Below, piece by piece: positions 37,254-59,220 of a stretch of DNA of 64,000 nt; within the stretch, counting starts at the first letter, position 1, and each line of letters begins with the position of its first letter. Source of the stretch: an uncultured Actinomycetota bacterium (GTDB taxonomy: Bacteria; Actinomycetota; Acidimicrobiia; Acidimicrobiales; SZUA-35); contig CAVTAP010000017.1 of assembly GCA_963732695.1 (NCBI GenBank), forward strand, positions 387,460 through 451,459. The letters are read 5' to 3'. The position numbers and the translations under genes were made by a program. Below the pieces are notes generated by a model that was not told the origin of the DNA, made no database searches, and saw nothing but the letters and a program-made list of their open reading frames with translations.

Positions 37254-38021
37254 GTGGTTAGCGTGAACAGGGCCGACAAGGCCGCCTGGCGGGATCTGTT
37301 CGTCGTGCTCCTGCTGGAGGCGGCGTTGGTGGCCGCGCTCCACTGGGTGGGCTCCGACCTCTACGACGTACCCGTGCGGGCGCTCGGGCCCTGGTTCCAG
37401 ACAACCGAGCCGACCGTCGCCCTGGTGGCGCTGGCCCGCCTGGTCGGTCTGGCCATCGGCTACTGGCTGCTCACCACCACCGTGCTGTACGCCCTGTCGT
37501 ACCATCTCGGGCTCGATGCGCTCACCCGGCTCCTGCACTGGGTGACCCTGCCGGTGGTCCGTCATGTGGTGCAGGGCGTGACGGCCCTGTCGCTGACCGG
37601 AGCCACCATCCTCGGCCCATCGGCCATCTCGGCCCTGCCGGCCATGGCCCAGCACATGGCGGTGACCCAGGGCGACACCACCTCCACCACCACGGTCGGG
37701 AGCGACGGCACGTTCACCCCGGGGGCGGCCGGTTGGCCGTCGAGCGGGGAGGACGGGAGCTTCTGGCTGCCCAACGCCGGCCTCACCCCGGCGGCAGTGG
37801 GGGCCCAGGCCGGAGCCGAACGCTACATCGTGGTCAAAGGCGACAACTTCTGGACGATCGCCGAGAGCCGGATCCGGTCGGTGAAAGGTGGCGGTGTCAC
37901 CGAGCGCCAGGTGGCCCAGTACTGGGTCGAGGTGGTCGACGCCAACCGCTCGTCGATCCGCTCCGGCGACCCCGACCTGATCTTCCCCGGCGAGCAGGTC
38001 ACCCTCCCCGCCGTCGAGTAG
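37254..38021 (+). CDS. Polytopic membrane protein with C-terminal LysM peptidoglycan-binding domain
   Basis: ORF 37167..38021 with an uncertain start (GTG 37254 chosen). Three to four hydrophobic helices. C-terminus YIVVKGDNFWTIAE...IRSGDPDLIFPGEQVTLP is LysM. Confidence 0.65.
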   Translation: MVSVNRADKAAWRDLFVVLLLEAALVAALHWVGSDLYDVPVRALGPWFQTTEPTVALVALARLVGLAIGYWLLTTTVLYALSYHLGLDALTRLLHWVTLPVVRHVVQGVTALSLTGATILGPSAISALPAMAQHMAVTQGDTTSTTTVGSDGTFTPGAAGWPSSGEDGSFWLPNAGLTPAAVGAQAGAERYIVVKGDNFWTIAESRIRSVKGGGVTERQVAQYWVEVVDANRSSIRSGDPDLIFPGEQVTLPAVE

Positions 38022-38087
38022 ACCCCGAATCTCCTCATGGAGCGTGCCACCGGTGAGACCCTCCATGAGGAGATTCCGGTTCGGGGT
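38022..38087. terminator. Long bidirectional hairpin between the convergent LysM and coupling-protein genes
   Basis: ACCCCGAA-TCTCCTCATGGAG ... CTCCATGAGGAGA-TTCCGG-TTCGGGGT: 13-bp plus 8-bp stems with a 6-nt bulge. Confidence 0.6.
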
Positions 38088-40234
38088 CAGTTGGCGCGTC
38101 CCCAGGTGTCGTCGCGGGGCTTGGAGCGATCGTCGGGCAGCGCCCCGCCCCGTTCGACGGCCTCCCAGTAGCGGGCCGACTCCCGGTCGTTGGCCTCGGA
38201 GTTGAGCGGGTCGGGGGTGCCCGGGGGCAGCAACGGGTCGTCGGCGTCGACCTGCTGGGGTCGCCGAGCGGACCGCTCCCACGGCCGCGGGCCCCGCCAC
38301 CGTCGCCGGCCCGGATCGGTGGCCGGGCCACCGCCTCCTCCCCCACCTCCGGCCTGGACCCGGCGCCGCAGGGTCTCGTCGCTCTGCCACGGCCGCAGGG
38401 TGAGGCTGAGCGGGGGCAACTCGCCGTGGAGCAGCACCGCCTCCCCACCCTGCAGGGCCGGGATCCACGAGCCGCCGTCCCGGCTGATCGAGCTGAGGTA
38501 GCTGAGCGTGGGGGTGTCGTCGAGCGAGGGCAGGGCCAGCCGGGCCCGATGGTTGTCGGCCGTGCGCAACGCCTGCTCCCGGCCGAACGCCCGCTCCAGC
38601 TGCATCAGCCCGGTGAACAGGCTCAACACCTGGATACCGGCGCCCGACGAGCCGGCGTTGGCCAGCTGGTCGAGCACGGTGGGCGGCGTGCAGTGGACGG
38701 TGCCGTCTATGACCACCAGCAGGGGCGGGCTGAGCGTGCCGCCGCCCGACGAGGCGGCCCGGGCCAGGGCGGCGTCGGCCGCCTGCGACAGCAGGGTGGC
38801 CAGCAGGGGCTGGAACCGCTCCCCCTGGTCGGGGGCGGCATAGAGGTAGAGCGTGTTGGGGCGCCCGTCGAGCAGGTGCCGCACGTTGATCTGGGCCTGG
38901 TCGTCCCGGGGCAGGCCGGCCAGGCCGGGGTCGAGATAGGGGGCCATGGTGAGGGCCAGCACCTGGGAGGCGGCGGCCGCGGTGGACGGGTCGAACGAGC
39001 GACCGTTCTCCCAGGCGGCGACGGCGTCGGCCACCCCCACCCGCTGGAGGGCGGCGGTGACGGCCCGCTCGTCGCGCCGGTCGAGCCAGTCGGCCACCTG
39101 GCCCATCGGTTGCTCGGTGGCCACCGCCGCCAGGAGCATCGGGGCCAGCAGCTGGGCCGCCGCCCGGGCCCCCGACTCGTTCACTCCGGCCGAGCCGTTC
39201 GCCTGGCCGCTGGCCTGCACCATCATGTCGGCGGTGCGCCGGGCCAGGGCCCACTGACGGGTGCGCCAGGACAGGTCGAGCTCGCCCCCCTCACGGGGCA
39301 GAGCGGTGAGTGCCTGGAGGGGAGACCAACCGTAGCGGCGCATCGGATGGCGGCTGCCGGGCCCGGAGCCGGGCCGTTTCATCGTGGCCGACGGGTCGAA
39401 CAGCCAGGTCTGACCGCCCCGGTCGCACCGGCCGTCCCAGCTCAGATGCACCAGGTCGGGCTTGGACGTGCACACCAGGGCCGGCCCGTCCCACTCGAGG
39501 AGGGCGGGTACGCCCAGCGACGCCGTCTTGCCCGACCCGGTGGGCCCGAAGGCGATGACGGCCTGGCCCTGGTCGGCCGCCACGAGATAGCTGCCCACCC
39601 GGCCCAGCACCAGCTGGCGGCCGGGCGGCGTGTCGACCATGAGCCGAGAGGCGGCCGGGGCCACCGGCAGGATCGGGGCGCCAGCAGGCGAGGGGCCGCC
39701 GCCGCCCCCGGGGGGCGTCGGGGGCCGCTCGTCCTCCGGGGGGTTCTGCCGGAGCACCCGCTGGTTGTGGCGGTACTCCCGCCGGGACCGGGTGCGCACC
39801 GTGCGGGGGTTGTTCTGGGGTGTGGGGTAGACGGCCACCGGCATGGGCTCGGGCGGGCGGGGGCCGATGATGCGCCACGCCGGCCAGAACAGGAGGCTGA
39901 ACACCGCCGCTTCGGCGATGAAGGCGCCCCAGAACCAGCGGGGGCCCGCCAGGGCCTCCCTGGTCTCGGGGGCCCAGGCCCGGTCCCAGTTGAACTTGTA
40001 GGCGCCGAGGCGGGCCATGGCGATGGCCGCCTCACCCATCCCCACGTGGGCCCGGGCGCCGTTGCCGAGCCACGACGACAGCTCGGCCGCCCCCCACACC
40101 ATCACCAGCAGGCCCAGCACGATCAACATCAGCGTCCAGATCGCCACCTCGGTGTGGACCCCGGGCAACCCGTCGAGGTAGACGACGGGCCGGGCCCGTC
40201 CCCCCTCCTGCACCCAGCCTTCGCGCTGCCTCAC
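38087..40234 (-). CDS. Type IV coupling protein (VirD4/TraG-like, TraM-recognition-domain type)
   Basis: Two N-terminal TM helices. Walker A GPTGSGKTAS. Downstream region LLVVIDGTVHC...IQVLSLFTGLMQLERAFG aligns by eye with the T4CP Walker B/Q region. Gly/Pro/Arg-rich C-terminal tail. Confidence 0.75.
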   Translation of the reverse strand: MRQREGWVQEGGRARPVVYLDGLPGVHTEVAIWTLMLIVLGLLVMVWGAAELSSWLGNGARAHVGMGEAAIAMARLGAYKFNWDRAWAPETREALAGPRWFWGAFIAEAAVFSLLFWPAWRIIGPRPPEPMPVAVYPTPQNNPRTVRTRSRREYRHNQRVLRQNPPEDERPPTPPGGGGGPSPAGAPILPVAPAASRLMVDTPPGRQLVLGRVGSYLVAADQGQAVIAFGPTGSGKTASLGVPALLEWDGPALVCTSKPDLVHLSWDGRCDRGGQTWLFDPSATMKRPGSGPGSRHPMRRYGWSPLQALTALPREGGELDLSWRTRQWALARRTADMMVQASGQANGSAGVNESGARAAAQLLAPMLLAAVATEQPMGQVADWLDRRDERAVTAALQRVGVADAVAAWENGRSFDPSTAAAASQVLALTMAPYLDPGLAGLPRDDQAQINVRHLLDGRPNTLYLYAAPDQGERFQPLLATLLSQAADAALARAASSGGGTLSPPLLVVIDGTVHCTPPTVLDQLANAGSSGAGIQVLSLFTGLMQLERAFGREQALRTADNHRARLALPSLDDTPTLSYLSSISRDGGSWIPALQGGEAVLLHGELPPLSLTLRPWQSDETLRRRVQAGGGGGGGGPATDPGRRRWRGPRPWERSARRPQQVDADDPLLPPGTPDPLNSEANDRESARYWEAVERGGALPDDRSKPRDDTWGRAN

Positions 40235-40272
40235 GGTGCCTTCCTCACTGTGCCGTCCTCACGGTGCCGGCC

Positions 40273-41667
40273 TCATGTCCTGGCCCGTTCCGGCGGGGCG
40301 TGCACGGTGGTCACCGGCGCCCGGACCAGGTGGTCGAGGTTGGCCCGCATCGAGTGGTCGGTGTCGATGATCTCCCACTCCCGGTCGCCCACCCGGTGGT
40401 CGACGATGAACGTCTGCTGGCGCACCTTCCACAGGGCCACGCCCCGGCCCAGCCGGGGCAGCACGTCGGCCTCGGCGCTGGTGAGGCCGAGCAGCCGCTT
40501 GGTGTCGGCCACCTCACCCTCGGCCTGGGCGTACACCACCCGGGTCTCGGTGTCGGACAGCAGGCCCTGGGCGATCCGGGTGGCTTCCGACCCCTCACCC
40601 CCGGCCGCCTCCAGGTCCGACATGCGGTGGACCACGATGATGTTGGACAGGCCGTACTGCCGGGACATCTTGAACATCGAGCGCAGCCAGCGGGCCAGGG
40701 CCACGTTCGACAGCAGATACCACGCCTCGTCGAGCAGCAGGATGCGCTGCACCCCGTCGCTGCGGGCGATGGCGTTGTGGAGCCAGGCCATGGTGCAGGC
40801 CATCACCAGGCCGAGGGCGTCGCCCGTGCTGCCCAGGGCCGACAGGTCGAGTACCACGATCGGGCCGTCCCAGTCGATGTCGACCGTCGTCCGTCCGTCG
40901 AACATGCCCTTGAGGTCGCCCTCGCACAGGCGGCGCAGCTCCAGGGCGGCGTCGCGCGACCGCTCGGCCAGCCGTTCCGCCGTGGTGTTGACCACCGACG
41001 CCACCTTCTGCGGGGGATCGAGCAGCACGTCGACCACGTCGATGATCGTGGGGTCGCCGTGGCGGCGTACCGCCTCCTCCCGGGCCAGGCTGATGGCCGT
41101 CCGCTCCTCGGGCAGCAGGTCGCGCCGCAGGGCCGACTCGGCCAGCGACATCAGGATCTGGTCCTGGCGGCGGTCGACCTCGTCGGCGCTGGCCGCCCCG
41201 GCCGTCACCAGGCCCCGGTCGAGCGGGTTGAGCCGCACGTCGGTGCCGGGGTCGAGCCGAATGACCGTGCCCCCCATCTGCTCGGCCAGGGGTCGGAATT
41301 CGCCCTTGGGGTCGATCACCACGGCCCGCCGACCGAACGCCGACTGGCGCCAGATGTACGTCTTGACCAGGGACGACTTTCCCCGCCCGATCTGGCCGGC
41401 CACCACCATGTTGGGGTTGGTGACCTTGTGGAGCCGGTACAGCTCCCACGGGTCGAAGCAGAACGAGCCGCCCAGTACCTCCTGGCCGATGTAGACGCCC
41501 CGCCCGCCGAGCCCGGTTGGCGACTGGAACGGGTAGATGGCCTGGAGATGGGCGGTGGTGGAATGGTGGGGCGGGGTGGCGGGCGACTTCGACAGCAGCC
41601 CGACCAGCAGGATCACCGCGCCGTAGAGCAGCAGCGCCACTCCCAGGACCACCAGCGCCGGGATCAA
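40273..41667 (-). CDS. VirB4-like conjugation/secretion ATPase, C-terminal ATPase part
   Basis: Proposed TTG start at 41667 overlapping the upstream stop (TTGA). N-terminal TM helix. Walker A GQIGRGKSS and Walker B ILLLDEAW. Typical of the ATP-binding proteins in actinobacterial T4SS-like loci. Confidence 0.7.
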   Translation of the reverse strand: MIPALVVLGVALLLYGAVILLVGLLSKSPATPPHHSTTAHLQAIYPFQSPTGLGGRGVYIGQEVLGGSFCFDPWELYRLHKVTNPNMVVAGQIGRGKSSLVKTYIWRQSAFGRRAVVIDPKGEFRPLAEQMGGTVIRLDPGTDVRLNPLDRGLVTAGAASADEVDRRQDQILMSLAESALRRDLLPEERTAISLAREEAVRRHGDPTIIDVVDVLLDPPQKVASVVNTTAERLAERSRDAALELRRLCEGDLKGMFDGRTTVDIDWDGPIVVLDLSALGSTGDALGLVMACTMAWLHNAIARSDGVQRILLLDEAWYLLSNVALARWLRSMFKMSRQYGLSNIIVVHRMSDLEAAGGEGSEATRIAQGLLSDTETRVVYAQAEGEVADTKRLLGLTSAEADVLPRLGRGVALWKVRQQTFIVDHRVGDREWEIIDTDHSMRANLDHLVRAPVTTVHAPPERART

Positions 41668-43376
41668 TGCAGTCCCTTGGCCAGCGGCATCGTGCAGTAG
41701 AAGGCGCTGTCCTGCTCCCCCCACAGGCGGCGCAGCTCCACCGGGCACTGGTAGGCCATCTGCTCGATCTGGGCCGCCGCCTGCTCCACCTCCTCCAGGT
41801 TCGATCCTGACACGGTCACGTAGCCCGAGTAGCGGGCCTCGGCGTGGCCGTCGGCCAGCTCGTTCTCCCGCCGGTCGAGGGCCTCGCCCTCCCGGCGGCG
41901 GCGGGCCCCGAGCCGGTAGCCGGCCCGGCTGCGCAGCTCGTCGTCGGACAGGCGGGCCGTCTGGGCGTGCTCCACCTGGCGCACCGCCCGCGACGTGGGG
42001 ATCGGCTCCGACACCACCGACACGGTGCGGGTGGCCCCGCTGTTCATGAGCAGCAGAGGGGCGAGGAAGCTGGGCCGCACCCCGAGCTTGGGCCACTCGG
42101 CGATCCAGTAGGTGACGTGGAACATCTTGTCGGTCCGGTAGTGGCCCCACGATGCCTCGGTGGCCATGGGCCAGGCGCTGCGGGCCGAGATCAGGGGTTC
42201 GGACCCCCGGGTCCGCCGGGTGGCCAGGGCCAGGGCGTCCTCCGGGTCGAACTGGGTGCGCAGCAGCAGAGCCAGCTCGTCGCCCGACAGGAACCCGCTC
42301 ACGTTGAGGTCGGACTCCCGGAGCTGGCGCTGGAGGTGATCGAGCTCGCGGTAGAGGACTGCCACCGCCCCCTTGTCGCCCCCGCCGGCCTGGCGGATGG
42401 CCCGCCCCGCTTTGGACTGCGAGATCTGCAGCACGAGGTAGGTCTCGTGCTGCTGGGTGACGGGCTGGGCCGACTGCAGCAACTCGGTGTAGGAGCCGTG
42501 GGCCGGCGTGCCCTCGGTGGTGCGGGCCCGTTCGGCGAAGAACGCCCGCATCTCGTCGCCCACCTCGGTGAGCGTGCGCTCCAGCCACTGCAGGCGGGAG
42601 ATCGGGCTGCCCTGGCGGGCCATCGAGGCCTGCACCGTGGCCCACGACGACAGCCGCCGCACCTGCTCGCCCTCGTCGAGCAGCATGAACGACTGGCCCT
42701 GGACGCCGATCACGGCCACCCAGCTCTTGTGCTTGCGGTCGCGGAGCACGCCCATGGGCTGGCCCGAGACCGAGGTGTAGATCAGCTGCCAGTCCGCCAC
42801 CGGCGGCGGGGGCGACGGCTTACCGGCCCGGCGGACGGACCGCCCCCCTTCCCCGCCCACCGGGGCGGTGCCGTTGGTCGACGGGGTGCCCTCGGCGGGC
42901 GGTGCCTTCCGGGGGGCCAGGATGGTGCGGGAGGTCTCCGGGGCGATGCCGTCGGGCCACGGCGGGATGTCGCTGTCTTCGGGCAGCAGGGCTGAGCCGT
43001 CGGGCATCGGCGGCTGGCCCGGCCGCGGTGAGGGGGCGGTGGCCACGGGGGGCACCGGGGCCCGCTCTCCTTGGCCGGGGGCGGGCGAGAACCAGCGGCG
43101 CCGGCCTCTCATCACGAGCAGAGCGTAGTGGGAGAACGCCGGGAGCCAGTCATCGAATGGTCGCCCCTCGATCGTGCCGAAGGCGGCGGCCACCCCGGCC
43201 ATGGCCAACATGATGGCCACGCCCACTCCGATCTGACCCGGCACGTACCGCAGAAAGGCCACACCGGTGCCCATGGCGGTGACCAGGAACCCCACCTGGG
43301 CGTGGCGCAGCCCGCCGAGGAAGACGGCCCTGACCGGGGGGCCGAACTGGAACCTGACGTCGGTGCCGTCGTTCAT
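41664..43376 (-). CDS. VirB3-like TM hairpin fused to a VirB4 N-terminal-domain-like region (resembles the family PGAP names SCO6880)
   Basis: 570 aa. N-terminal FLGGLRHAQVGFLVTAMGTGVAFL...IGVGVAIMLAMAGVAAAF (2 TM). Pro-rich linker, then a ~380-aa soluble domain. Position is immediately upstream of the ATPase ORF. Assignment is by context and recollection, not by alignment. Confidence 0.5.
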   Translation of the reverse strand: MNDGTDVRFQFGPPVRAVFLGGLRHAQVGFLVTAMGTGVAFLRYVPGQIGVGVAIMLAMAGVAAAFGTIEGRPFDDWLPAFSHYALLVMRGRRRWFSPAPGQGERAPVPPVATAPSPRPGQPPMPDGSALLPEDSDIPPWPDGIAPETSRTILAPRKAPPAEGTPSTNGTAPVGGEGGRSVRRAGKPSPPPPVADWQLIYTSVSGQPMGVLRDRKHKSWVAVIGVQGQSFMLLDEGEQVRRLSSWATVQASMARQGSPISRLQWLERTLTEVGDEMRAFFAERARTTEGTPAHGSYTELLQSAQPVTQQHETYLVLQISQSKAGRAIRQAGGGDKGAVAVLYRELDHLQRQLRESDLNVSGFLSGDELALLLRTQFDPEDALALATRRTRGSEPLISARSAWPMATEASWGHYRTDKMFHVTYWIAEWPKLGVRPSFLAPLLLMNSGATRTVSVVSEPIPTSRAVRQVEHAQTARLSDDELRSRAGYRLGARRRREGEALDRRENELADGHAEARYSGYVTVSGSNLEEVEQAAAQIEQMAYQCPVELRRLWGEQDSAFYCTMPLAKGLH

Positions 43377-47822: not shown

Positions 47823-47901
47823 GAGATCGTCCACCCCAGCCAAAGGTGGGCCGGGGGTGGGTCTCCAGCAGGAGATCCACCCCCGACTCTGTTCTCCCTG
47901 C

Positions 47902-52538: not shown

Positions 52539-52950
52539 CGAGACCGTCCTCGTCGAGCTCGCGGGCCACCACCGAGGTGGTGTCGAACTGGGCGTCGGGC
52601 AGGGGCGGCAACGACCGCAGGGTGGCGTTCGCCGTGACCTGCACGGTGGTCCCGTTGGCGCTGCAGCTGAAGGTGATACCGCTGGCCATGGGCCCGCCCA
52701 GCAGGTCGTCGACCGCGTCGTTGGCCGCCGCCAGGCAGTCGTCGACCGTGCCCCCCTGCACGGCCCAGGCCCGGGCGCCCTCGTCGGTGGCCTGGCGGAT
52801 CACGGCCTGGGCGTAGCGCTGCACGAACAGGTCGGCGAAGCCCGTCACCAGCACCAGGGTGACAGCCATGACCCACATGGCCGAGGCGATCGTGAAACCC
52901 TGCTCGGTCTCACCACCCGCCGCCTCGGTTGTCTCCGGCCCGCCTGACAT
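52528..52950 (-). CDS. TadE-like pseudopilin (divergent processing site)
   Basis: ATG at 52950. EQG/FTIASAMWVMAVTLVLVTGF has a hydrophobic N-terminus but no Glu at +5. Confidence 0.5.
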   Translation of the reverse strand: MSGGPETTEAAGGETEQGFTIASAMWVMAVTLVLVTGFADLFVQRYAQAVIRQATDEGARAWAVQGGTVDDCLAAANDAVDDLLGGPMASGITFSCSANGTTVQVTANATLRSLPPLPDAQFDTTSVVARELDEDGLVAP

Positions 52951-52985: not shown

Positions 52986-53207
52986 CTAGAGGCCGAGCTC
53001 GCTGCGGATGCGGTTGATGATGTCGACGCCGAGCGCCTGCAGGGCGGTGGCGAAGGCGGCCGCCACCACCAGGCCCAGCAGGGCGATGCCCATCGACTGG
53101 GCGATCTCGAAGCCGTCCTCCTCGGCCGGGCGGGCCCGGTTTGCCTCGAGGCTGCTGGACCAGACCAGGTAGGCGGCGGTGAGCTTGGCCATCGTTTCGG
53201 TGATCAC
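52986..53207 (-). CDS. Flp-type (class III) pilin candidate
   Basis: 73 aa. GTG at 53207 after AAGGAA. EEDG/FEIAQSMGIALLGLVVAAAFATALQALG is a hydrophobic helix after a Gly. Position between tadC and the tadE genes is as in actinobacterial Tad loci. Confidence 0.55.
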   Translation of the reverse strand: MITETMAKLTAAYLVWSSSLEANRARPAEEDGFEIAQSMGIALLGLVVAAAFATALQALGVDIINRIRSELGL

Positions 53208-53284
53208 GGGTGCGGGTTCCTTGCTGTGCGGGCGGACGGGACGGGCGAGGGGCGGTGCGGGGAACGACGGGGGCGGTCCTTTGG

Positions 53285-54235
53285 TCAGGAGCCGAAGATG
53301 AAGCGGGGAATGGGAGCGACCACGTAGAGGAACACCACAGGGGCCATGACGAGCAGGGTGGGGAGGATCATGGCGCCCTTGCGCCGGGTGCCGAGCCGTT
53401 CCAGCTCCTCCCGGCGTTCGGCCCGCAGGGTGTTGGCCACCGTCATCAGCGACTCGGCCACGTCGGACCCCTGCTGGGAGGCCTCACCCAGGATGCGGTA
53501 GATGCGGGCCGCCGCCGGCTCCACCGTCTCCTGCGACAGGCGCTCCATGGCCTGGGCCAGGGTGAGGCCACCGGCCACCCACGACTGGGCCTCCCGCAAC
53601 TCCTCCACCACCGGGCCCCGGCCCCGGGTGATCACCTGGCGGATGGCCATGGCCGGGGTGTGGTTGGCCTTGGCCAACATCGTGAGCAGGTGGGCCACGG
53701 TGTACAGCTCGAGGCGCATGGTCTGGGCCCGGGCCTCGATGGCGGCGTTGAGCTTGCCCCGGGCCGAGGTGAGGCCCCAGCCCACGCCGAGGGCGACGCC
53801 CACCACGGCCCAGAAGCTCTGGGCTCCGAACACCGCACCCACCCACAACCCCACCAGCACGCCGCCCACGACGCCCAGCAGGGCCCGCCCGGCCTGGGAG
53901 ATGCGGTACTCCCGGGGCGACACGTCGACCAGGCCGGCGTGGTGCAGGCGGCGGGTGATCTCGTCCTCGTCGCCCGAGTCGACCAGGCGGGACACGAAGC
54001 CGGCGAACCCGTCGATGATGGGGCCGAAGATCCGGCGGAACGGCCCGTAGGAGAGGTTGGCGTTGATGGCCAGGGCGGCGCTCACGTCGGCCCGTTGGCC
54101 GAGCCGGGTGCGGCGCAGCTGGACATAGGGCCGCAGGCGCGACTCGAGCGCCGGGCGGGGTCGGACCACCAGGCTGGTCAGGCTGGCCGCCAGGTAGGCG
54201 GCGAGCAGGGCGACGAGAATGGCTCGGGTGTCCAT
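53285..54235 (-). CDS. tadC: Type II secretion system F-family protein, TadC
   Basis: ATG at 54235. 316 aa. GspF-like domain with TM helices at the N-terminus, middle and C-terminus. 1-nt overlap with tadB. Confidence 0.8.
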   Translation of the reverse strand: MDTRAILVALLAAYLAASLTSLVVRPRPALESRLRPYVQLRRTRLGQRADVSAALAINANLSYGPFRRIFGPIIDGFAGFVSRLVDSGDEDEITRRLHHAGLVDVSPREYRISQAGRALLGVVGGVLVGLWVGAVFGAQSFWAVVGVALGVGWGLTSARGKLNAAIEARAQTMRLELYTVAHLLTMLAKANHTPAMAIRQVITRGRGPVVEELREAQSWVAGGLTLAQAMERLSQETVEPAAARIYRILGEASQQGSDVAESLMTVANTLRAERREELERLGTRRKGAMILPTLLVMAPVVFLYVVAPIPRFIFGS

Positions 54236-55134
54236 CAGCGGGTTCGCCCCACGTCGACGGCGAACACCCGGGGTTCCTCGGGGAGGCGACCCAGCCGGCG
54301 CACCAGGATCATGCCCATCACGCTCAGGCTGGTGCCGAGCATGATCACGGCCACCCCGCCCCGGGAGGCGTAGAACTCGCGGCCCGGCCCGGGGCGGAAG
54401 GTGAGCAGGATGAGGAACAGGAACGGCAGCACGAACACGGCCCGGGCGTTCAGCCGCTGCTCCAGCTGGGCCGTCTCCACCCGGTCGAGCACCTGCAGGT
54501 CCTCGATGGTGGAGCGGGCCAGCTCCGCCATGATCTCCACCACCACCGCCGGCCCCTGTTCCAGGGCCAGCAGCAGGTCCTCGATGATCCGGTCCGACAC
54601 CGGGTCGGCCAGCTCCTCCCGGATCACCTCCAGAGCGGTGGCCGAGTCGAGCGTGAAGCTGAGGCTGGAGTAGCGGACGAACACCGGGCGCAGCTCGTTG
54701 GGCCCTGAGGTGGCCAGCACCAGCAGGGCCTGGTGGAGCGACATCGACGACGACACCGAGGCCACGATCGACCGCAGGGCCTCGGGCCAGGCCTCCAGCC
54801 GGGCCCGGGCCAGCTTGCGCCGCTGCTGGGCGAACCACCACCGGGGGGTGAGGGCCACCGCCACCGCCGGGGGCAGGGCCACCATGGGGATCGAGGTGAT
54901 CACCCACACCAGGCCGAACGTGGCCGCGCCGGCCAGGATCGAGGAGCTCCAGAACTGGGTGGGGGTGACGGGCAGGCCGGCCTGGTTCAACCACTCCTGG
55001 CGCCGGGCCCGGCTGGGGCGGGCCGGCTGCTCGGCCAGCGGGGCGAACCGCAGCCGTTGGGGCATGTAGCCCACGGCCAGGCCCACGGCGAAATAGACGG
55101 CGATCCCGCAGAAGAGGCCGGCCAGAAGGGTCAT
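54235..55134 (-). CDS. tadB: Type II secretion system F-family protein, TadB
   Basis: ATG at 55134 (ATGA overlap with tadA). 299 aa with the same architecture as tadC. Confidence 0.8.
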   Translation of the reverse strand: MTLLAGLFCGIAVYFAVGLAVGYMPQRLRFAPLAEQPARPSRARRQEWLNQAGLPVTPTQFWSSSILAGAATFGLVWVITSIPMVALPPAVAVALTPRWWFAQQRRKLARARLEAWPEALRSIVASVSSSMSLHQALLVLATSGPNELRPVFVRYSSLSFTLDSATALEVIREELADPVSDRIIEDLLLALEQGPAVVVEIMAELARSTIEDLQVLDRVETAQLEQRLNARAVFVLPFLFLILLTFRPGPGREFYASRGGVAVIMLGTSLSVMGMILVRRLGRLPEEPRVFAVDVGRTR

Positions 55135-56609
55135 CGGCTGGAGGGCCCGGGCTCGGTGCTGAGGCTCACCGGCACCACCGGCGCCGGGTAGGGGTTGCGG
55201 CGGAACGCCCGACGGCCGGGCCGGGGGGAGAGGCCCGTCTCGGGCGGCATGTCGGCCAGGGCCACCACATTGGCCGGGTTGCCCCGGAGCAGGTCGGCGG
55301 TGCTCGACTCGTGCCGCTTGAGCGTGGCGTCGAGGCGGGCCATGGCGGCGTCCGACGGGTAGGCCTCGGACCACCGCAGCGGCTCGCCGATGCGGTCCCG
55401 CACGAACAGCGGTTGGAGCAGGAAGTCTTCGCCGGCGGCGTTGGGCATGAGCGCCGCAACCTCCATCACCTGGCGCCGGATGGGGGCGCCGCCCTGGTCG
55501 TCGAAGGCCAGCTCCTCCCGGTCGACGAAGACCACCAGATGGAACATGCGCTGGAAGGTGGACTGGACCTGGGCCGGGGCCACGTTCTCGCCGGCCATGA
55601 TGGCGGTGTCGCGCAGGGCCGACAGGGCGTCGTAGGGGTTGTTGGCGTGCACGGTGGCGATCACCCCGCACCCGGCGTTGCCCGCCCGCACCAGCTCGAA
55701 GGCCTCGGCCCCCCGCACCTCGCCCACCACCAGCAGGTCGGGCCGCATGCCGAGGCACGTCTTGACCAGATCCCGCAGGCTCACCTCGGCCGCCACGTCG
55801 CCGTCGGCCCCGGCGGGTCGGGTCTGGTAGTACGAGCCGGCCATCACCGGGGCCGACAGCTCGCGGATCTCCTCCACGCAGCGCACCACCATGGTGGGGG
55901 GCACCGCCCGCAGCAGGGCGTTGAGCATGGTCGTCTTGCCGGCGCCGGGGCGGCCGCACACGAGGATGCCGAGCCCGGAACGGACGGCCGCCCACAGCAG
56001 CTCGGCCACCCGCTGGTCCATCGAGTCCCGACCCACCAGCAGCGACAGCGTCTCGTTGCGCATCGTGTACTTACGGATGGTGACCGACAGCTTGTCGGCG
56101 ATCGGGGGGATCACGACGCCCATGCGCACCGTGCCCCCCAGCACCCGGGCCTGCACCATGGGCTCGCGCTCGGTGACCTCCCGGCCCGCATCCTGCAGCA
56201 GGCGGCGGACCACGGCCAGGTTCTCCTCGGCGGTGGTGACCTCGCTCACACCCCGCATGTAGCCGCCGCCGTCGATGAAGAAGATGTCGTCGCCCTCGAT
56301 GAAGATCTCCTCCACCCCGGGATCGTTCAGCGGGCTGGTGAGGGGGCCGTACTCGAGCACGTAGCGCAGGATGCGCTCGGCCATCTCGTCGGGCCGGGCC
56401 AGCAGCTCCTTGCCGTCGAGCCCCTGGCGGGCCACGGTCTGCCACGACTCGATGGCGCCCCGCACGAAGTGGTCGACACCCTCGGGGTCGACCTCGGGAT
56501 CGAGGCGGGCGGTCTTGATGCCGTCGGTGACCTCGTTGCGGAGGACCTCGTAGGGCGACAGGGGGCGGCTCGTCGTCCGGCGGCGGGCGGTGGCGGGCTC
56601 ACGGCTCAT
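55131..56609 (-). CDS. tadA: CpaF/TadA-family secretion ATPase
   Basis: ATG at 56609. Walker A GRPGAGKTT, Asp box/Walker B LLVVGEVRG, His box IATVHAN. Confidence 0.9.
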   Translation of the reverse strand: MSREPATARRRTTSRPLSPYEVLRNEVTDGIKTARLDPEVDPEGVDHFVRGAIESWQTVARQGLDGKELLARPDEMAERILRYVLEYGPLTSPLNDPGVEEIFIEGDDIFFIDGGGYMRGVSEVTTAEENLAVVRRLLQDAGREVTEREPMVQARVLGGTVRMGVVIPPIADKLSVTIRKYTMRNETLSLLVGRDSMDQRVAELLWAAVRSGLGILVCGRPGAGKTTMLNALLRAVPPTMVVRCVEEIRELSAPVMAGSYYQTRPAGADGDVAAEVSLRDLVKTCLGMRPDLLVVGEVRGAEAFELVRAGNAGCGVIATVHANNPYDALSALRDTAIMAGENVAPAQVQSTFQRMFHLVVFVDREELAFDDQGGAPIRRQVMEVAALMPNAAGEDFLLQPLFVRDRIGEPLRWSEAYPSDAAMARLDATLKRHESSTADLLRGNPANVVALADMPPETGLSPRPGRRAFRRNPYPAPVVPVSLSTEPGPSSR

Positions 56610-57907
56610 CAGACCGGTTGCTCCCGGCGTGCTCGTGCTCGTCGGCGCCGCCCGGGCGCCGGAGCGGGCAGCAGTTCGGCCGCCAGCTCCTTCATCGCTT
56701 TGGTGAACCGGCCCCGGGACGGCACCCGGGCCTCCCAACAGGCCCGTTCCACCTCGGGCCCGAGAGGGGCGAACATCACACCCGAGACCAGCTCGCTGCC
56801 GGCCTCCCGGGAGATCGTCTCCACCAGATCGGCCCGCTGGGTGGCGCTGCGGGGCCGGCCGGCGAACACGATCCACACCGGCGCGCCGTTGCGCAGCCGG
56901 CGGGCCTCGATCAGCCAGTCGAGCGCCAGCAGCACGCCGGTGGGCGTGGGGTCGCACACCCCGATCACCCGGTCGCCGATGGCCACCGCCCCCTGGGACG
57001 CCCCGTAGCGGTCGATGCCCTGGGGCATCGAGCCCAGCCGGGGACCCGACACGGCCACCACGTGGTTCCACTGCTCGGCCGCCCGGCGGATCAGGTCGGT
57101 GCAGCGGTCCCGCCCCAGGAGCGACCAGTCGTCGGGGTTGGCGATGCCGGCCATCACGTGCATCGGAGCGAAGCCGCTGGCCCCCTGGGCCGGTTCGGTG
57201 ATCGCCGCGCTCAGATCTCCGTCGCCGTAGTAGAGGCGCTCCATGGCGTCGAGCACGGTGGGCTCCAGCCGATAGCCCAGCCGGGCCGAGAGGATCGGCG
57301 TGGTCTCGTCGACGTCGATCAGCAGGGTGGTGCCCCGCTCGGTGGCCAGCTCGGCCGCCAGGCCCACCGCCACCTCCACCGCGCTGAGCGAGGCCGGGCC
57401 GCCCACGGTGATGATGGCCCCCCGCTCGGTGGGAATCTCGGCCCCGTTGACCCGGGCCATGGCCGACACCGCCGGCGACGGGGCCAGGGTGGCGGTCAGA
57501 TCGACCTCGACGTCCTCCTCGAGATCCTTGGTGACCTCCTGGATGAGCTGCACCAGCTGGCTGGCCATGAGCTCGGCCGAGGCCACGTCGGCGATGCCGA
57601 GGCGGTTCAGGTGGGCCTGGCCCTGCCCCTGATGCTCGCTCGGGTCGTAGATCCCGATGATCTGGACGCCGGCCTCCCGCAGCTGGCGGAGGCTCTCCCG
57701 GTTGAGGAAGGTGGAGGAGTCGTCGATGATCACCACGTCGATCGAGTCGTCGATGGCCCGGGGGTCGCGCAACACCCGCACCCGGAGCCCGGTGATGTGG
57801 TCCTGCACGTAGCGGGCGAACTCGGTGCGCCAGGCCCGGTGGCTGGCCACCAGCCCAACCGTGCGCACCTCGGACGAGGGCTGGTGGAGCTGGGTGGGAT
57901 CAACCAT
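56609..57907 (-). CDS. tadZ: TadZ/CpaE (Ssd-like) protein: receiver-like N-domain plus degenerate ParA/MinD-type ATPase domain
   Basis: ATG at 57907. N-terminal VVIIDDSS...QIIGIY is receiver-like. In place of the deviant Walker A KGGxGKT it has ITVGGPASLSAVEVAVGLA. Position between cpaB and tadA. Confidence 0.6.
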   Translation of the reverse strand: MVDPTQLHQPSSEVRTVGLVASHRAWRTEFARYVQDHITGLRVRVLRDPRAIDDSIDVVIIDDSSTFLNRESLRQLREAGVQIIGIYDPSEHQGQGQAHLNRLGIADVASAELMASQLVQLIQEVTKDLEEDVEVDLTATLAPSPAVSAMARVNGAEIPTERGAIITVGGPASLSAVEVAVGLAAELATERGTTLLIDVDETTPILSARLGYRLEPTVLDAMERLYYGDGDLSAAITEPAQGASGFAPMHVMAGIANPDDWSLLGRDRCTDLIRRAAEQWNHVVAVSGPRLGSMPQGIDRYGASQGAVAIGDRVIGVCDPTPTGVLLALDWLIEARRLRNGAPVWIVFAGRPRSATQRADLVETISREAGSELVSGVMFAPLGPEVERACWEARVPSRGRFTKAMKELAAELLPAPAPGRRRRARARREQPV

Positions 57908-58742
57908 TGCTCGACGGATCCGTACCTGGGGTCGTCGAACGGTCCGAAGAGGGCACCGAGGATGGGGTGGGGCCCGCATCGGCCGGCGAGGAGGTGGAAC
58001 CGCCCGTGGCGGCGGCCGGGCCGGGGGCCACCACCCGCTGGTCGAGCGGCACCGGCTCGGCGCCGGTGGAGCGGAGGATCGACACCTCGCCGGTCTGCTG
58101 GGCCAGGGCGATCGAGAGCGCCCTCTCGCCGTCCACCGCCACCGTGACGTAGTAGTCGGTGAGGGCCGACGATCCGAGAGCGCCCGTGCCCTGCTGGTTC
58201 TGGGTCTTCAGCACCTCGAGGTCGACCGCAACGTAGGTGGCGGACGACCCGGTGACCGAGATCACGTCGACCCGGTCTCCGGGGGCGAGCTCGCCGCCCA
58301 CGGCCCGCGCCCGCTCGATCGGGATGCTCATGGCCCGCAGGCCGTCGTTGTCGGTGCGGGGGGCGATGGCGGTGAGTGTGACCGGATCGCCGGCCTCGAT
58401 CCGCTGGCCGGCGATGGCTCCACCCCCGGCCAGGTCACCCAGGCCGGCCATGGCGGTGGCGAGGTCGCTGCCGGCCGGCATCGGCACCTGGCGCACCAGG
58501 TCGGGGGTGATGGCCGCCCCGGGCAGGATGTCGGTACGGGCCACCAGCACCTGGGTGGTCTTCGACCGGTCCTGGAGCACCGATACGACCAGGACGAACG
58601 CCAGCAGCGCAGCGGCGATCATGAAGAGGTGGCCGAGCGAGATCCGCTCCCGGGCCTTGCGGCGGCGGGGCGCCACCGGCCTCGGACGGGGCCGCGACGA
58701 ATCTGACGAGGTCTCCTGTTCGGCTGTCAGAGAACTCGTCAT
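57900..58742 (-). CDS. cpaB: CpaB/RcpC-family Flp pilus assembly protein (SAF domain)
   Basis: TM helix LFMIAAALLAFVLVVSVL, then VLVARTDILPGAAITPDLV (SAF-like). Ser/Thr/Pro-rich C-terminal tail. First gene of the operon. Confidence 0.7.
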   Translation of the reverse strand: MTSSLTAEQETSSDSSRPRPRPVAPRRRKARERISLGHLFMIAAALLAFVLVVSVLQDRSKTTQVLVARTDILPGAAITPDLVRQVPMPAGSDLATAMAGLGDLAGGGAIAGQRIEAGDPVTLTAIAPRTDNDGLRAMSIPIERARAVGGELAPGDRVDVISVTGSSATYVAVDLEVLKTQNQQGTGALGSSALTDYYVTVAVDGERALSIALAQQTGEVSILRSTGAEPVPLDQRVVAPGPAAATGGSTSSPADAGPTPSSVPSSDRSTTPGTDPSSNG

Positions 58743-58855
58743 AGGACGCCACCATTCTTCCCCATGGATAACCTCGCCTGCCCGCGCGCCACCAAGGAGA
58801 CCAGGAGCGAAAGATAACGAGTATTCACTCCAGTCGCAAGTACACCGCTAGTAAG

Positions 58856-58872
58856 AATGCCCACCGGGCATT
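58856..58872. promoter_or_regulatory. Palindrome AATGCCC-ACC-GGGCATT in the AT-richer cpaB / HTH divergent region
   Basis: Perfect 7-bp arms read directly. Lies between the Tad operon start (58742) and the HTH gene (58939). Confidence 0.4.
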
Positions 58873-58938
58873 ACTGGGCACAGTCCAGCTCTGGCGTAGT
58901 ATCGTCGGGCTTCAATCCGCCGGCGGCCGGGCACGTTC

Positions 58939-59220
58939 TTGGCCGTTTCATCATCCGTTTCGACGACCAGGATTGAACAGACCGTGACCTACACATCTGC
59001 GACCGGCGACCTTCCCGAGCTGATCACGGTGGCCGACGTGGCCAACTATCTCAACCTCACACCGCAGACCGTTATCTCGTTCATCAAGCGGGGTGAGCTG
59101 GTGGCCACCAAGCCCCCCGGCATGCGCGGCTACCGCATCCCCCGCCAGGCGTTCGAGGACTACCTGGCGGCCGGCTACCAGGCGGTCCAGCGTGAGGTGG
59201 CGACCTCGGTAGAGGTCTGA
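58939..59220 (+). CDS. Excisionase-family helix-turn-helix DNA-binding protein
   Basis: LITVADVANYLNLTPQTVISFIKRGELVATKPPGMRGYRIPRQAFEDYL is the Xis-type HTH_17 pattern. The start is uncertain (TTG 58939 or GTG ~58984). Confidence 0.7.
   Translation: MAVSSSVSTTRIEQTVTYTSATGDLPELITVADVANYLNLTPQTVISFIKRGELVATKPPGMRGYRIPRQAFEDYLAAGYQAVQREVATSVEV

What the first reader, a model, noticed from the sequence alone, without database searches (positions are those of the whole stretch)
37254..59220. Tad (type IVc) pilus operon physically joined to a minimal VirB4/VirD4 T4SS-like module, with no relaxase or integrase in view
About 22 kb holds two machineries that are usually described separately.
- (a) 49941-58742, minus strand: cpaB-tadZ-tadA-tadB-tadC-flp-tadE-tadE-tadG plus two unknown secreted proteins.
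- (b) 38087-45852, minus strand: a small 2-TM protein, a TM-anchored protein, a VirB6-like protein, a VirB3/B4N protein, a VirB4 ATPase and a VirD4-like coupling protein.
- Between them, a plus-strand operon (45972-48448) carries a lipoprotein, the SLT+M15 wall hydrolase (a T4SS-type function) and the prepilin peptidase (a pilus function) in one transcription unit. This is the sequence-level argument that the two modules are co-regulated rather than merely adjacent.
- No secretin or TadD is present, consistent with a monoderm host. No MOB relaxase, oriT-like nic site, integrase or tRNA is seen anywhere in the 64 kb.

Hypothesis: a Tad pilus serves as the surface filament for a VirB4/VirD4 translocon in a monoderm actinobacterium, for DNA or protein transfer or uptake. 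I do not know of this having been characterised.
Basis: partly seen in the sequence, partly recalled or inferred. Interest (0 to 1): 0.8.

Follow-up and report, generated by a model that had tools for sequence, protein, structure and literature searches.

The report
Tad pilus genes joined to T4SS
An uncultured Acidimicrobiales bacterium carries, in its chromosome, intact pilus genes (Tad) next to a complete Gram-positive-type DNA/protein translocation machine (T4SS) with no relaxase or integrase in the window. The same pairing recurs on conjugative plasmids of other actinobacteria, so the two probably work together, but nobody has tested this.

Summary
Window 37254-59892 holds a complete monoderm Tad (type IVc) pilus operon and a full SCO6880/cmd-type T4SS, not a minimal one. 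No relaxase, integrase, transposase, tRNA or att repeats were found in the 64 kb.

The locus is not an oddity of this genome:
- The same composite, in the same order, is kept in every viewable Acidimicrobiia relative down to 45% identity.
- It appears in a second metagenomic clade (VirB4 about 43% identical).
- It appears as colinear arrays on the conjugative MOBF plasmids pTC1 and pNOCA01, and in a Nocardiopsis element that has a Replic_Relax protein.
- Tad-linked T4SSs are polyphyletic on a VirB4 tree. Tad modules have been swapped while linkage stayed (pTC1/pNOCA01: VirB4 95%, TadA 48%).

Two strong hairpins separate the hydrolase and peptidase genes, and the peptidase lies on the other strand in 45-80% relatives.

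The window copy is chromosomal and under purifying selection (dN/dS 0.07-0.43). Its VirD4 has lost the Walker-B glutamate.

Best reading: a domesticated pilus-plus-T4SS contact and translocation apparatus, substrate unknown. Tad/T4SS adjacency was already noted, with the question left open, on Cutibacterium acnes plasmids. I rate it a new variant of a known kind.

The parts
37254..38021 (+). Membrane protein with a C-terminal LysM-like peptidoglycan-binding motif. It is a conserved neighbour on the VirD4 side.
   Evidence: Weak LysM hits (phrog endolysin). Homologues at 51-55% stay near VirD4 in L001 and L003, with a luciferase-like or LeuRS gene inserted between them.
38021..38082 (.). Near-perfect palindrome between two convergent genes, likely a bidirectional terminator.
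   Evidence: repeat I12: 31-nt arms, 84% complementary, no spacer.
38087..40234 (-). VirD4-like type IV coupling protein. Walker A is intact (GPTGSGKT); Walker B is degenerate (VVIDG instead of hhhhDE).
   Evidence: PF02534 at 33.9 bits against a 20.1 cut-off; TraG/VirD4 NCBIfam hits; alignment A5.
40273..41667 (-). VirB4-family ATPase, C-terminal (motor) half only. Walker A and B are intact.
   Evidence: Matches TraC-F-type positions 419-696 of 800, VirB4_CagE 432-727 of 792 and CD1110. P-loop_TraG and AAA_10. 80-82% identical in L001 and L003.
41664..43376 (-). SCO6880/'PrgI family' protein: a VirB3-like TM hairpin, a disordered linker, and a VirB4 N-terminal-half-like domain.
   Evidence: NF042935 at 280 bits. 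AlphaFold model pLDDT 75. Best Foldseek hits are R388 TrwK/VirB4, E 1e-11 over about 400 columns.
43376..44884 (-). VirB6/TrbL-like polytopic membrane protein (SCO6881-like).
   Evidence: Weak SCO6881_fam hit. The positional homologue carries TrbL_3 in L008 and is annotated 'type IV secretion system protein' on the Iamia plasmid.
44871..45584 (-). DUF8175 TM-anchored protein, a VirB8-position candidate.
   Evidence: PF26526 is recorded on the positional homologues, which tblastn matches to this protein at 58-65% identity. No PDB sequence match.
45577..45852 (-). DUF6112 / TrbC-VirB2-like small membrane pilin.
   Evidence: PF19607 at 37.5 bits; PF04956 at 27.9 bits, equal to its cut-off. Relatives are 89-91 aa.
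45972..46709 (+). Lipoprotein, transcribed divergently from the T4SS operon.
   Evidence: The lipobox can be read in the translation. Conserved at 38-81%.
46719..47822 (+). Cell-wall hydrolase: an SLT_2 lytic transglycosylase domain plus a C-terminal LAS/M15-type metallopeptidase motif (H-x6-D ... H-x-H). This is the VirB1 role.
   Evidence: PF13406. Invariant H287, D294, H355 and H357 in alignment A1. The Iamia plasmid homologue is annotated as D-Ala-D-Ala carboxypeptidase family.
47852..47885 (+). Terminator-like 15-bp GC-rich hairpin, followed by a second stem-loop, between the hydrolase and the peptidase.
   Evidence: In one search the spacer folds at -93.5 kcal/mol, z = -5.4.
47975..48448 (+). 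TadV-type prepilin peptidase (A24, no methylase domain). Its orientation is inverted relative to the 45-80% relatives.
   Evidence: PF01478 at 26.1 bits against a 26.5 cut-off, E 1.2e-5. Asp motifs RDARSG and IGRADVRL are conserved. Orientation data.
48462..48689 (-). HTH_17 excisionase-family DNA-binding protein.
   Evidence: PF12728; phrog excisionase families. Kept in all clade A relatives that could be viewed at this position.
48755..49804 (-). Clade-specific membrane protein: an N-terminal TM helix plus two tandem NTF2-like domains (the architecture of TcpC/VirB8-like proteins). It sits at the 3' end of the Tad gene string.
   Evidence: 28 homologue clusters, all 45-97% identical. Model pLDDT 80.5. 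Foldseek hits are tandem-NTF2 Lsd19, generic NTF2 folds, and TcpC 3ub1 at E 1.3e-2 over 310 columns.
49941..50897 (-). Secreted protein of unknown function, with a signal peptide.
   Evidence: No family hit. Conserved at 56-89%. dN/dS 0.16.
50894..51562 (-). Lipoprotein of unknown function.
   Evidence: Lipobox LVAC in the translation. Conserved at 50-79%. dN/dS 0.43.
51559..52071 (-). TadG-like pseudopilin (G|SVTLWV).
   Evidence: Weak PF13400 hit. Motif conserved in L090 and L136.
52068..52538 (-). TadE-like pseudopilin (G|FVAVEW).
   Evidence: Motif alignment.
52528..52950 (-). TadE-like pseudopilin (G|FTIASAMW).
   Evidence: Motif alignment. The 140-aa ORF matches the 142-aa protein of L090.
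52986..53207 (-). Flp-type major prepilin with a long leader; cleavage is predicted after G (..EDG|FEIAQSMGIALLGL).
   Evidence: The mature part is nearly invariant in L090, L136 and L137.
53285..54235 (-). TadC (T2SSF platform protein).
   Evidence: PF00482, E 1.2e-13. dN/dS 0.065.
54235..55134 (-). TadB (T2SSF platform protein, divergent).
   Evidence: PF00482, weak at E 5.5e-3. 76-94% identical in relatives.
55131..56609 (-). TadA/CpaF secretion ATPase.
   Evidence: PF00437, E 1e-23. The best NCBIfam hit is TIGR03819 at 170 bits, below its 373 cut-off. dN/dS 0.065.
56609..57907 (-). TadZ-position protein. Identity is inferred from position only.
   Evidence: No Pfam hit. One weak P-loop-region hit. 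No PDB hit. Conserved at 94% in L093 and L095; a 430-aa gene sits in the same place in L136.
57900..58742 (-). CpaB/RcpC.
   Evidence: PF16976 and SAF.
58984..59220 (+). Second HTH_17 excisionase-family protein, divergent from cpaB. Likely a regulator or a relic of a mobile element.
   Evidence: PF12728. 91% identical and in the same position in L136.
59221..59892 (-). Conserved unknown protein at the Tad-side edge. Whether it belongs to the locus is uncertain.
   Evidence: 51% identical and in the same position in L136. No family hits.

Best explanation
The locus is a chromosomally fixed copy, with no relaxase in view, of a composite "Tad pilus + monoderm T4SS" cell-contact and translocation apparatus. 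This composite recurs on actinobacterial conjugative elements.

**Shown**
- All parts of a monoderm Tad pilus are present and intact.
- All parts of an SCO6880/cmd-type T4SS are present and intact: VirB1-, B2-, B3/B4N-, B4C- and B6-like proteins, VirB8 candidates and VirD4.
- The two modules are inherited together.
- The pairing has arisen or been re-assorted several times.

**Inferred mechanism**
- The TadV peptidase processes Flp and three pseudopilins.
- TadA, TadB, TadC, the TadZ-position protein and CpaB build a pilus through the wall.
- The pilus finds and draws in a partner cell, as the thin pilus does for IncI plasmids and PAPI-1.
- The lipoprotein/SLT-M15 hydrolase opens the peptidoglycan.
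- The split VirB4, with VirB6 and the TM-anchored NTF2-like proteins, forms the membrane channel that moves the substrate.

In this lineage no relaxase or integrase accompanies the machine, the coupling protein's Walker B is degenerate, and the locus sits in conserved chromosomal context. It has therefore most likely been domesticated for a host function rather than for self-transfer. That function could be exchange or uptake of chromosomal DNA, or contact-dependent delivery of proteins. The substrate is not known.
For: **Gene content:**

**Co-conservation in clade A**
- Seen in L001/L002, L003/L090, L093-L095, L136 and L137, across U349 identities of 45-97%.
- dS is uniform across both modules (0.24-0.41) and dN/dS is 0.07-0.43 for 13 genes.

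**Recurrence elsewhere**
- Same order and orientation in clade B: L009, L099, L101, L102, L104.
- Colinear Tad-LysM-T4SS arrays on the conjugative MOBF plasmids pTC1 and pNOCA01.
- Nocardiopsis L030 carries VirB6, VirB4, VirD4, Replic_Relax, a hydrolase and Tad.
- pAL1 carries Tad plus an MPF_FA-like T4SS.
- C. acnes plasmids (PMC5696575).

**Recurrent coupling**
- Tad-linked lineages are interspersed with Tad-less conjugative elements on the VirB4 tree.
- Histories are incongruent. pTC1 vs pNOCA01: VirB4 95%, TadA 48%. Clade B's VirB4 is nearest to clade A's, but its TadA is nearest to the plasmid type.
- A TcpC-like TM + 2xNTF2 protein sits inside the Tad gene string.

**Domestication**
- No relaxase, integrase or att sites.
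- The FAD-oxidase neighbour is kept in L001 at 82.5%.
- VirD4 Walker B reads DG here and DD in L001 and L003, against DE on plasmids and ICEs.
Against: - No experiment anywhere links a Tad pilus to T4SS function in a monoderm.
- The same T4SS module works on many plasmids and ICE-like elements without Tad, so Tad is not required by the machine as such.
- The modules are separate operons. Terminator-like hairpins lie between the hydrolase and peptidase genes.
- The NTF2 fold of U349 is generic, and the TcpC match is weak (E 1.3e-2).
- Only 64 kb of a 460-kb contig was seen, so a relaxase could lie elsewhere in the genome.
- Clade B shows no VirD4 in view.
- The sample of contexts is small (about 25 loci) and was chosen by similarity, not at random.
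Confidence: 0.55

Rival explanations
1. The two systems are functionally independent and travel together only because both are common cargo or machinery of actinobacterial mobile elements. On this view Tad is an adhesion or colonisation pilus, as in Bifidobacterium or as proposed for C. acnes. The T4SS is a conjugation channel or the relic of one, and there is no mechanical cooperation.
For: - T4SS modules of this family occur without Tad.
- The two lie in separate operons with hairpins between them.
- Tad modules are exchanged independently of the T4SS.
- The literature treats plasmid Tad loci as adhesins and leaves the link open (PMC5696575).
Against: - Adjacency recurs in at least four VirB4 lineages and with two Tad types.
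- Both modules were kept intact, with similar dS and strong purifying selection, in chromosomal copies that show no transfer or integration genes in view.
- Order and orientation are the same in clades A and B despite about 43% VirB4 identity.
- A TcpC-like protein sits inside the Tad gene string.
Confidence: 0.3
2. The locus is a DNA-uptake or DNA-exchange machine, with no export of a relaxase-DNA complex. A Tad pilus would capture DNA or bring cells together, and a VirB4/VirB6/VirB2-like channel would import DNA. This follows the pattern of Ups pili plus Ced in Sulfolobales, or ComB in Helicobacter.
For: - No relaxase in view, and a chromosomal location.
- A degenerate VirD4 Walker B, and no VirD4 in view in clade B.
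- Tad pili are required for transformation in Micrococcus luteus (PMC4322843).
- T4P is needed for Ced-mediated import (as stated in PMC12102498).
Against: - The CedB model matches only at 17 bits against a cut-off of 700.
- A VirD4 gene is retained in all of clade A.
- No comEA, comEC or DNA-processing genes lie in the window.
- The nearest relatives of the T4SS are conjugative export systems with MobF relaxases.
Confidence: 0.1
3. The locus is a decaying remnant of an integrated plasmid or ICE, with no present function.
For: - No relaxase or integrase in view.
- Two excisionase-family HTH_17 genes.
- A degenerate VirD4 Walker B.
Against: - All 25 or so genes are intact, with overlapping start and stop codons.
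- dN/dS is 0.07-0.43.
- The architecture is kept across relatives down to 45% identity, in differing chromosomal surroundings.
Confidence: 0.05

Closest known systems
Cutibacterium acnes linear plasmids (p15.1.R1, pTZC1 family) and Arthrobacter pAL1: a tad locus next to T4SS-like conjugation genes
   Same: - An actinobacterial Tad (Flp) locus lies close to a VirB4-based transfer module on one replicon.
- The authors ask whether the pili are linked to conjugation (PMC5696575).
- pAL1 shows the same pairing.
- pTZC1 transfers by mating (PMC10100872).
   Different: - Those T4SSs are of the FtsK-like/VirB4/TcpC (MPF_FA-like) type and sit on transmissible plasmids.
- The window has the SCO6880/cmd-type T4SS with VirD4 and a different Tad subtype (no ~1000-aa LysM protein; TadA 26-34% identical).
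- The window locus is chromosomal, with no relaxase in view.
pTC1 (Paenarthrobacter aurescens TC1) and pNOCA01 (Nocardioides sp. JS614) Tad-LysM-SCO6880-type T4SS arrays
   Same: - They have the same T4SS family: a pilin-size gene, a DUF8175-size gene, VirB6-like, SCO6880 and VirB4.
- That T4SS is directly joined to a complete Tad operon.
   Different: - Their arrays are colinear and sit on MOBF conjugative plasmids. They include a giant LysM protein and have no U349, U318 or U222.
- VirB4 is 31-32% and TadA 26-28% identical to the window.
- I found no description of them as a joint system in the genome paper (PMC1713258).
Streptomyces cmdABCDEF / SCO6871-6884 / SLP2.19-23 clusters
   Same: - Same protein families: a VirB4-like ATPase plus SCO6880- and SCO6881-like membrane proteins.
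- A chromosomal copy (cmd) has been exapted for a host function (sporulation, chromosome segregation), while the plasmid copy (SLP2) is needed for conjugal transfer (PMC2782261).
   Different: - PMC2782261 mentions no Tad genes with those clusters.
- The window's proteins are only distantly related to their Streptomyces counterparts (about 31-34% for SCO6880 against Streptomyces plasmids).
Hybrid type IV pilus + T4SS conjugation systems of diderms (IncI1 R64 thin pilus; PAPI-1)
   Same: A type IV filament machine, encoded beside a VirB4/VirD4 machine, helps or is required for mating (PMC12857230).
   Different: - Those use T4b pili in diderm Proteobacteria on self-transmissible elements.
- Here the pilus is type IVc (Tad), the host is a monoderm actinobacterium, no relaxase is in view, and function is untested.
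Ups pili + Ced DNA import in Sulfolobales
   Same: - Chromosomal and relaxase-less.
- A type IV filament is paired with a VirB4/VirB6/VirB2-like channel for exchange of chromosomal DNA (PMC12102498 text; reference PMC9905601 cited there).
   Different: - That system is archaeal, has no VirD4, and its two loci are not adjacent.
- The CedB model does not match here (17 bits against 700).

Membership tests
Tad (type IVc) pilus system, monoderm form | TadA/CpaF-type secretion ATPase | tested here: met
   PF00437, E 1e-23. TIGR03819 is the best NCBIfam hit at 170 bits, below its equivalog cut-off of 373. Walker A, Walker B and the His box can be read in the translation.
Tad (type IVc) pilus system, monoderm form | Two T2SSF platform proteins (TadB, TadC) | tested here: met
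   TadC: PF00482, E 1.2e-13. TadB: only E 5.5e-3, below the cut-off, but of the same length, in the same position, and 76-94% conserved.
Tad (type IVc) pilus system, monoderm form | Flp prepilin and TadE/F/G pseudopilins with a shared G/XXXXE[YF]-type processing site | tested here: met
   Four small proteins have G|F/S followed by a hydrophobic helix, conserved in L090 and L136. Only one (G|FVAVEW) has the canonical E+5; Flp has E+2. Pfam Tad/TadE hits are weak or absent.
Tad (type IVc) pilus system, monoderm form | TadV-type A24 prepilin peptidase without a methylase domain | tested here: met
   PF01478 at 26.1 bits against a 26.5 cut-off (E 1.2e-5). Both Asp motifs are conserved. 157 aa long.
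Tad (type IVc) pilus system, monoderm form | CpaB/RcpC and TadZ/CpaE accessory proteins | tested here: inconclusive
   CpaB is met (PF16976 + SAF). The TadZ-position protein has no Pfam, NCBIfam or PDB support beyond one weak P-loop-region hit.
Type IV secretion system, monoderm SCO6880/cmd type | VirB4-family ATPase | tested here: met
   It is split in two. The motor half is at 40273-41667 (TraC/VirB4/CD1110 hits, E 1e-21 to 1e-27). The N-terminal half lies in the SCO6880 protein (Foldseek to TrwK/VirB4, E 1e-11).
Type IV secretion system, monoderm SCO6880/cmd type | VirD4-type coupling protein with a functional NTPase site | tested here: inconclusive
   PF02534 scores above its cut-off and Walker A is intact. 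Walker B reads IDG, so the catalytic Glu is missing.
Type IV secretion system, monoderm SCO6880/cmd type | VirB6-like polytopic channel protein, VirB3-like protein and VirB8-like (NTF2) protein | tested here: inconclusive
   VirB6-like: weak SCO6881_fam hit, plus TrbL_3 on the L008 homologue. VirB3-like: the TM hairpin in the SCO6880 model. VirB8 candidates: DUF8175 (no structure obtained) and U349 (tandem NTF2; TcpC match at E 1.3e-2).
Type IV secretion system, monoderm SCO6880/cmd type | Dedicated cell-wall hydrolase (VirB1 role) and VirB2-like pilin | tested here: met
   SLT_2 plus the LAS/M15 motif. DUF6112 at 37.5 bits; TrbC at its cut-off.
Self-transmissible conjugative element (ICE or plasmid) | Relaxase (MOB) gene with the T4SS | tested here: not met
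   No relaxase family in any called gene of the 64 kb. Relatives on plasmids and ICEs do carry TrwC/MobF or Replic_Relax. The rest of the 460-kb contig was not seen.
Self-transmissible conjugative element (ICE or plasmid) | Integrase and flanking att repeats, often at a tRNA | tested here: not met
   No integrase, no tRNA, and no boundary repeats beyond chance-level matches. Only two excisionase-family HTH_17 genes are present.
Hybrid type IV filament + T4SS mating systems (R64 / PAPI-1 kind) | The pilus is required for, or enhances, T4SS-dependent transfer | not testable with these tools
   Needs genetics. Only co-localisation and co-conservation could be shown.
Ced-type DNA import system | CedB/CedA homologues | tested here: not met
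   CedB model scores 17.3 bits against a cut-off of 700.

The most novel reading that the evidence does not exclude
Acidimicrobiia have domesticated a plasmid-type Tad+T4SS mating apparatus into a chromosomal, relaxase-independent system for cell-to-cell exchange. The cargo would be chromosomal DNA or effector proteins. This would be a bacterial monoderm counterpart of the archaeal Ups/Ced system, with the Tad pilus making contact and the split-VirB4 channel moving the cargo.
Probability: 0.2. Interest if true: 0.8.

Novelty: new variant of a known kind. Interest (0 to 1): 0.58.

Why it matters
How monoderm T4SSs find and hold a partner cell is poorly understood. They are usually said to rely on adhesins rather than pili. 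A Tad pilus operon that is recruited again and again beside actinobacterial T4SSs suggests that type IVc pili are the mating or contact filament for a whole class of Gram-positive transfer systems. This is seen on conjugative plasmids that carry catabolic or resistance genes, and here in a conserved chromosomal copy.

The plasmid versions (pTC1, pNOCA01, pAL1, C. acnes pTZC1) sit in cultivable hosts, so the idea can be tested directly. The chromosomal copy, with no relaxase in view, adds a probable case of exaptation in the abundant but uncultured Acidimicrobiia.

Tried and rejected
- **Genome scan with the whole hydrolase alignment.** The patterns came from the generic SLT domain. Of 80 loci, 78 were unrelated lytic transglycosylases. 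Only L017 and L030 were useful.
- **TadA of the window against plasmids.** Only about 30% proteobacterial hits came back, which was not informative.
- **Look-ups of the window's end genes, to extend the contig.** No exact products are on record, so the search for a relaxase beyond the 64 kb could not be made.
- **PDB sequence searches for DUF8175 and the TadZ-position protein.** Nothing was found.
- **Rfam on the window.** No matches.
- **Search for att-like direct repeats at the island edges.** Only chance-level matches inside coding sequence.
- **ICE that landed next to an unrelated Tad locus.** Considered and rejected: there is no integrase, relaxase or att site, and the composite is conserved as a unit.
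- **A T7SS/ESX relation, suggested by the Pfam EccE hit.** Rejected: the fold match to VirB4 is far stronger (E 1e-11 against 3e-3).

Full report
**Source and gene calls**

The window is 72% G+C, so raw ORF lists are mostly noise. I called genes by codon-position G+C. Close homologues are named "Acidimicrobiales bacterium" MAG proteins, and the window's own contig is about 460 kb.

Outside 37254-59892 the window encodes ordinary chromosomal functions:
- a fused GlyQS, ABC exporters and an FAD oxidase;
- GH16 proteins and CobS/CobU;
- inositol-phosphate synthase, an acyl-CoA dehydrogenase and a large Ig-domain surface protein.

No relaxase, integrase or transposase family is present. There is no tRNA and no Rfam match.

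**Check of the observation**

The Tad operon is real and complete for a monoderm.
- It encodes CpaB (RcpC+SAF), a TadZ-position protein with no family support, TadA, TadB and TadC.
- It encodes a 73-aa Flp and three pseudopilins. All four pilin-like proteins share a G|F/S cleavage motif ahead of a hydrophobic helix, and the motif is conserved in relatives.
- The peptidase has both A24 aspartate motifs, although its Pfam score (26.1) falls just under the cut-off (26.5).

- It has a VirD4-like coupling protein and a VirB4 motor half.
- It has an SCO6880-family protein. The AlphaFold model (pLDDT 75) has a VirB3-like TM hairpin, and its folded part matches R388 TrwK/VirB4 at E 1e-11 over about 400 columns.
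- It has a VirB6-like polytopic protein, a DUF8175 TM-anchored protein and a DUF6112/TrbC-like pilin.
- It has a divergently transcribed lipoprotein plus an SLT_2/LAS-M15 hydrolase.

This is the protein set of the Streptomyces cmdABCDEF, SCO6871-6884 and SLP2.19-23 clusters. The plasmid copy of that set is needed for conjugal transfer, and a chromosomal copy affects sporulation (PMC2782261).

**The "one operon" argument**

This does not hold.
- The 152-nt spacer carries a 15-bp GC-rich terminator-like hairpin and a second strong stem. It folds at z = -5.4 against shuffles.
- Relatives at 87-91% share the window's arrangement.
- In relatives at 45-80% (L001, L003/L090, L136, L137) the peptidase lies on the Tad strand, after the HTH_17 gene. 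It is often separated from the hydrolase by an AMP-binding gene.
- The shared strand in the window is therefore a recent local inversion.

**Co-conservation in the window's clade (clade A)**

The protein at 48755-49804 (U349) has 28 homologue clusters, all 45-97% identical.

Every context that could be viewed keeps the same string. Reading along the minus strand, from high to low window coordinates, it runs:
- HTH_17, divergent from the Tad operon;
- CpaB, TadZ, TadA, TadB, TadC, Flp, three pseudopilins, two secreted proteins, U349 and HTH_17, with the peptidase;
- the hydrolase and lipoprotein, on the opposite strand;
- the pilin, DUF8175, VirB6-like, SCO6880, VirB4 and VirD4.

One exception is L137, where a kinase/nSTAND gene stands in place of CpaB and TadZ.

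Other points on clade A:
- Surroundings differ in part: LeuRS or a luciferase-like gene is inserted next to VirD4. The FAD oxidase neighbour, however, is kept in L001 at 82.5%, which fits vertical chromosomal inheritance.
- Between the window and L095, dS is even across both modules (0.24-0.41). dN/dS is 0.07-0.43 for 13 genes. Both modules are therefore under purifying selection and have the same age.

**The T4SS module is a conjugation machine by descent**

The same module, without Tad, accompanies relaxases and other plasmid or ICE genes:
- a TrwC relaxase, SSB and Prim-Pol in L008;
- SSB and ArdC in L006;
- MobF relaxases on a 34-kb plasmid of Iamia (Acidimicrobiales) and on a Streptomyces plasmid, and an Arthrobacter plasmid that PLSDB types MOBF.

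**Recurrence of the Tad link**

- A second metagenomic clade (B: L009, L099, L101, L102, L104) has VirB4 about 43% identical to the window. It has the same order and orientation: T4SS, then a divergent hydrolase, then a convergent Tad operon. Its Tad is of another type, with a ~970-aa LysM protein.
- The conjugative MOBF plasmids pTC1 (Paenarthrobacter aurescens) and pNOCA01 (Nocardioides JS614) carry colinear Tad-LysM-pilin-VirB6-SCO6880-VirB4 arrays.
- A Nocardiopsis locus has VirB6, VirB4, VirD4, a 289-aa Replic_Relax protein (126 bits), a hydrolase and a full Tad operon on one strand.
- pAL1 has Tad plus an MPF_FA-like T4SS, 14 kb apart.
- On a neighbour-joining VirB4 tree, Tad-linked lineages are interspersed with Tad-less ones.
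- Module histories disagree. pTC1 and pNOCA01 share 95% VirB4 but only 48% TadA. Clade B's VirB4 is nearest clade A's (44%), while its TadA is nearest the plasmid type (40-41% against 30%).
- Linkage is thus kept or re-created while the modules are exchanged. That pattern is expected if having a Tad pilus beside the T4SS is selected for.

**A possible bridging part**

U349 is predicted with pLDDT 80.5 as a TM helix followed by two NTF2-like domains. This is the architecture of TcpC, the VirB8-like protein of pCW3. TcpC is among the Foldseek matches, but weakly (E 1.3e-2, 310 columns). Tandem-NTF2 enzymes score better. This is a lead, not a demonstration.

**What is special here**

- The locus is chromosomal, with no relaxase or integrase in view, and it has two conserved excisionase-family HTH_17 genes.
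- Its VirD4 evolves fast: 40-46% identity between relatives whose VirB4 is 80-82% identical.
- That VirD4 has lost the Walker-B glutamate. It reads DG in the window and DD in L001 and L003, against DE on plasmids and ICEs.
- VirB4 and TadA keep their motifs.
- I read this as domestication of a mating apparatus, as with cmd in Streptomyces. The substrate is unknown.

**Comparison with what is known**

- Hybrid T4P+T4SS systems (R64, PAPI-1) and T4SS+T7SS systems (pRAW) are recognised. The 2025 review does not mention Tad (PMC12857230).
- A tad locus beside VirB4/TcpC/FtsK-like genes was described on C. acnes plasmids, with the remark that a functional link is unclear (PMC5696575). Those plasmids are transferable (PMC10100872).
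- I found no paper in the library describing the SCO6880-type T4SS joined to Tad, or a chromosomal version with no relaxase.
- I therefore rate it a new variant of a known kind.

**Limits**

- Contexts were sampled by similarity and are few.
- Trees are neighbour-joining on tblastn segments.
- The contig beyond the window could not be read.
- All functional statements about cooperation are inference.

Noticed in passing
window 38087-40234: The VirD4 Walker B reads VVIDG. It reads DD in L001 and L003, and the canonical DE in plasmid and ICE relatives. This protein is only 40-46% identical between relatives whose VirB4 is 80-82% identical.
   Followed up: partly
L141 (pTC1) and L142 (pNOCA01): The two plasmids share 95% identical VirB4 but only 48% identical TadA. 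The Tad module seems to have been replaced while its place next to the T4SS was kept.
   Followed up: partly
window 41664-43376: Pfam calls the SCO6880 protein EccE-like. Its model also matches ESX-3/ESX-5 EccE weakly (E 3e-3 to 1e-2), far below the VirB4 match. This hints at a distant fold relation between the VirB4 N-terminal domain and T7SS EccE.
   Followed up: no
window 22639-25662: A single 1007-aa protein fuses the glycyl-tRNA synthetase alpha and beta subunits.
   Followed up: no
window 35939-37075 and 62692-63339: Two paralogous GH16-type glycoside hydrolase genes lie a short distance outside each end of the locus. No repeat at DNA level was reported between them.
   Followed up: no
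window 14496-19556: A 1686-aa surface protein combines a glucose/sorbosone dehydrogenase domain with PKD, five Big_5 and CopC-like domains.
   Followed up: no
L001 3956-5605, L003 3803-5443, L137 11810-13426: An AMP-binding (acyl-CoA ligase-like) gene sits between the peptidase and the hydrolase in several relatives. It is absent from the window and from L136.
   Followed up: partly
L003 15446-18286; L001 15001-15885: A leucyl-tRNA synthetase gene (L003) or a luciferase-like gene (L001) is inserted between VirD4 and the LysM-protein gene. An essential gene inside the locus argues against an excisable element.
   Followed up: no
L006 1-2107; L102 7759-9391: Defence or toxin genes lie right beside related T4SS modules: SMODS, S_4TM and HEPN_AbiU2 in L006, and an HTH + AbiEii pair between the hydrolase and Tad in L102.
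   Followed up: no
L001 5728-6830 versus L002 5727-6830: The hydrolase gene is called as two pieces in the ENA assembly and as one 367-aa gene in the Logan assembly of what looks like the same locus. This is a frameshift or an assembly error.
   Followed up: no
L009 1-4696, L017 3635-4684, L092 22711-23514: A Toprim-domain protein is the constant neighbour of VirB4 in clade B and its Tad-less relatives, where clade A has VirD4.
   Followed up: no
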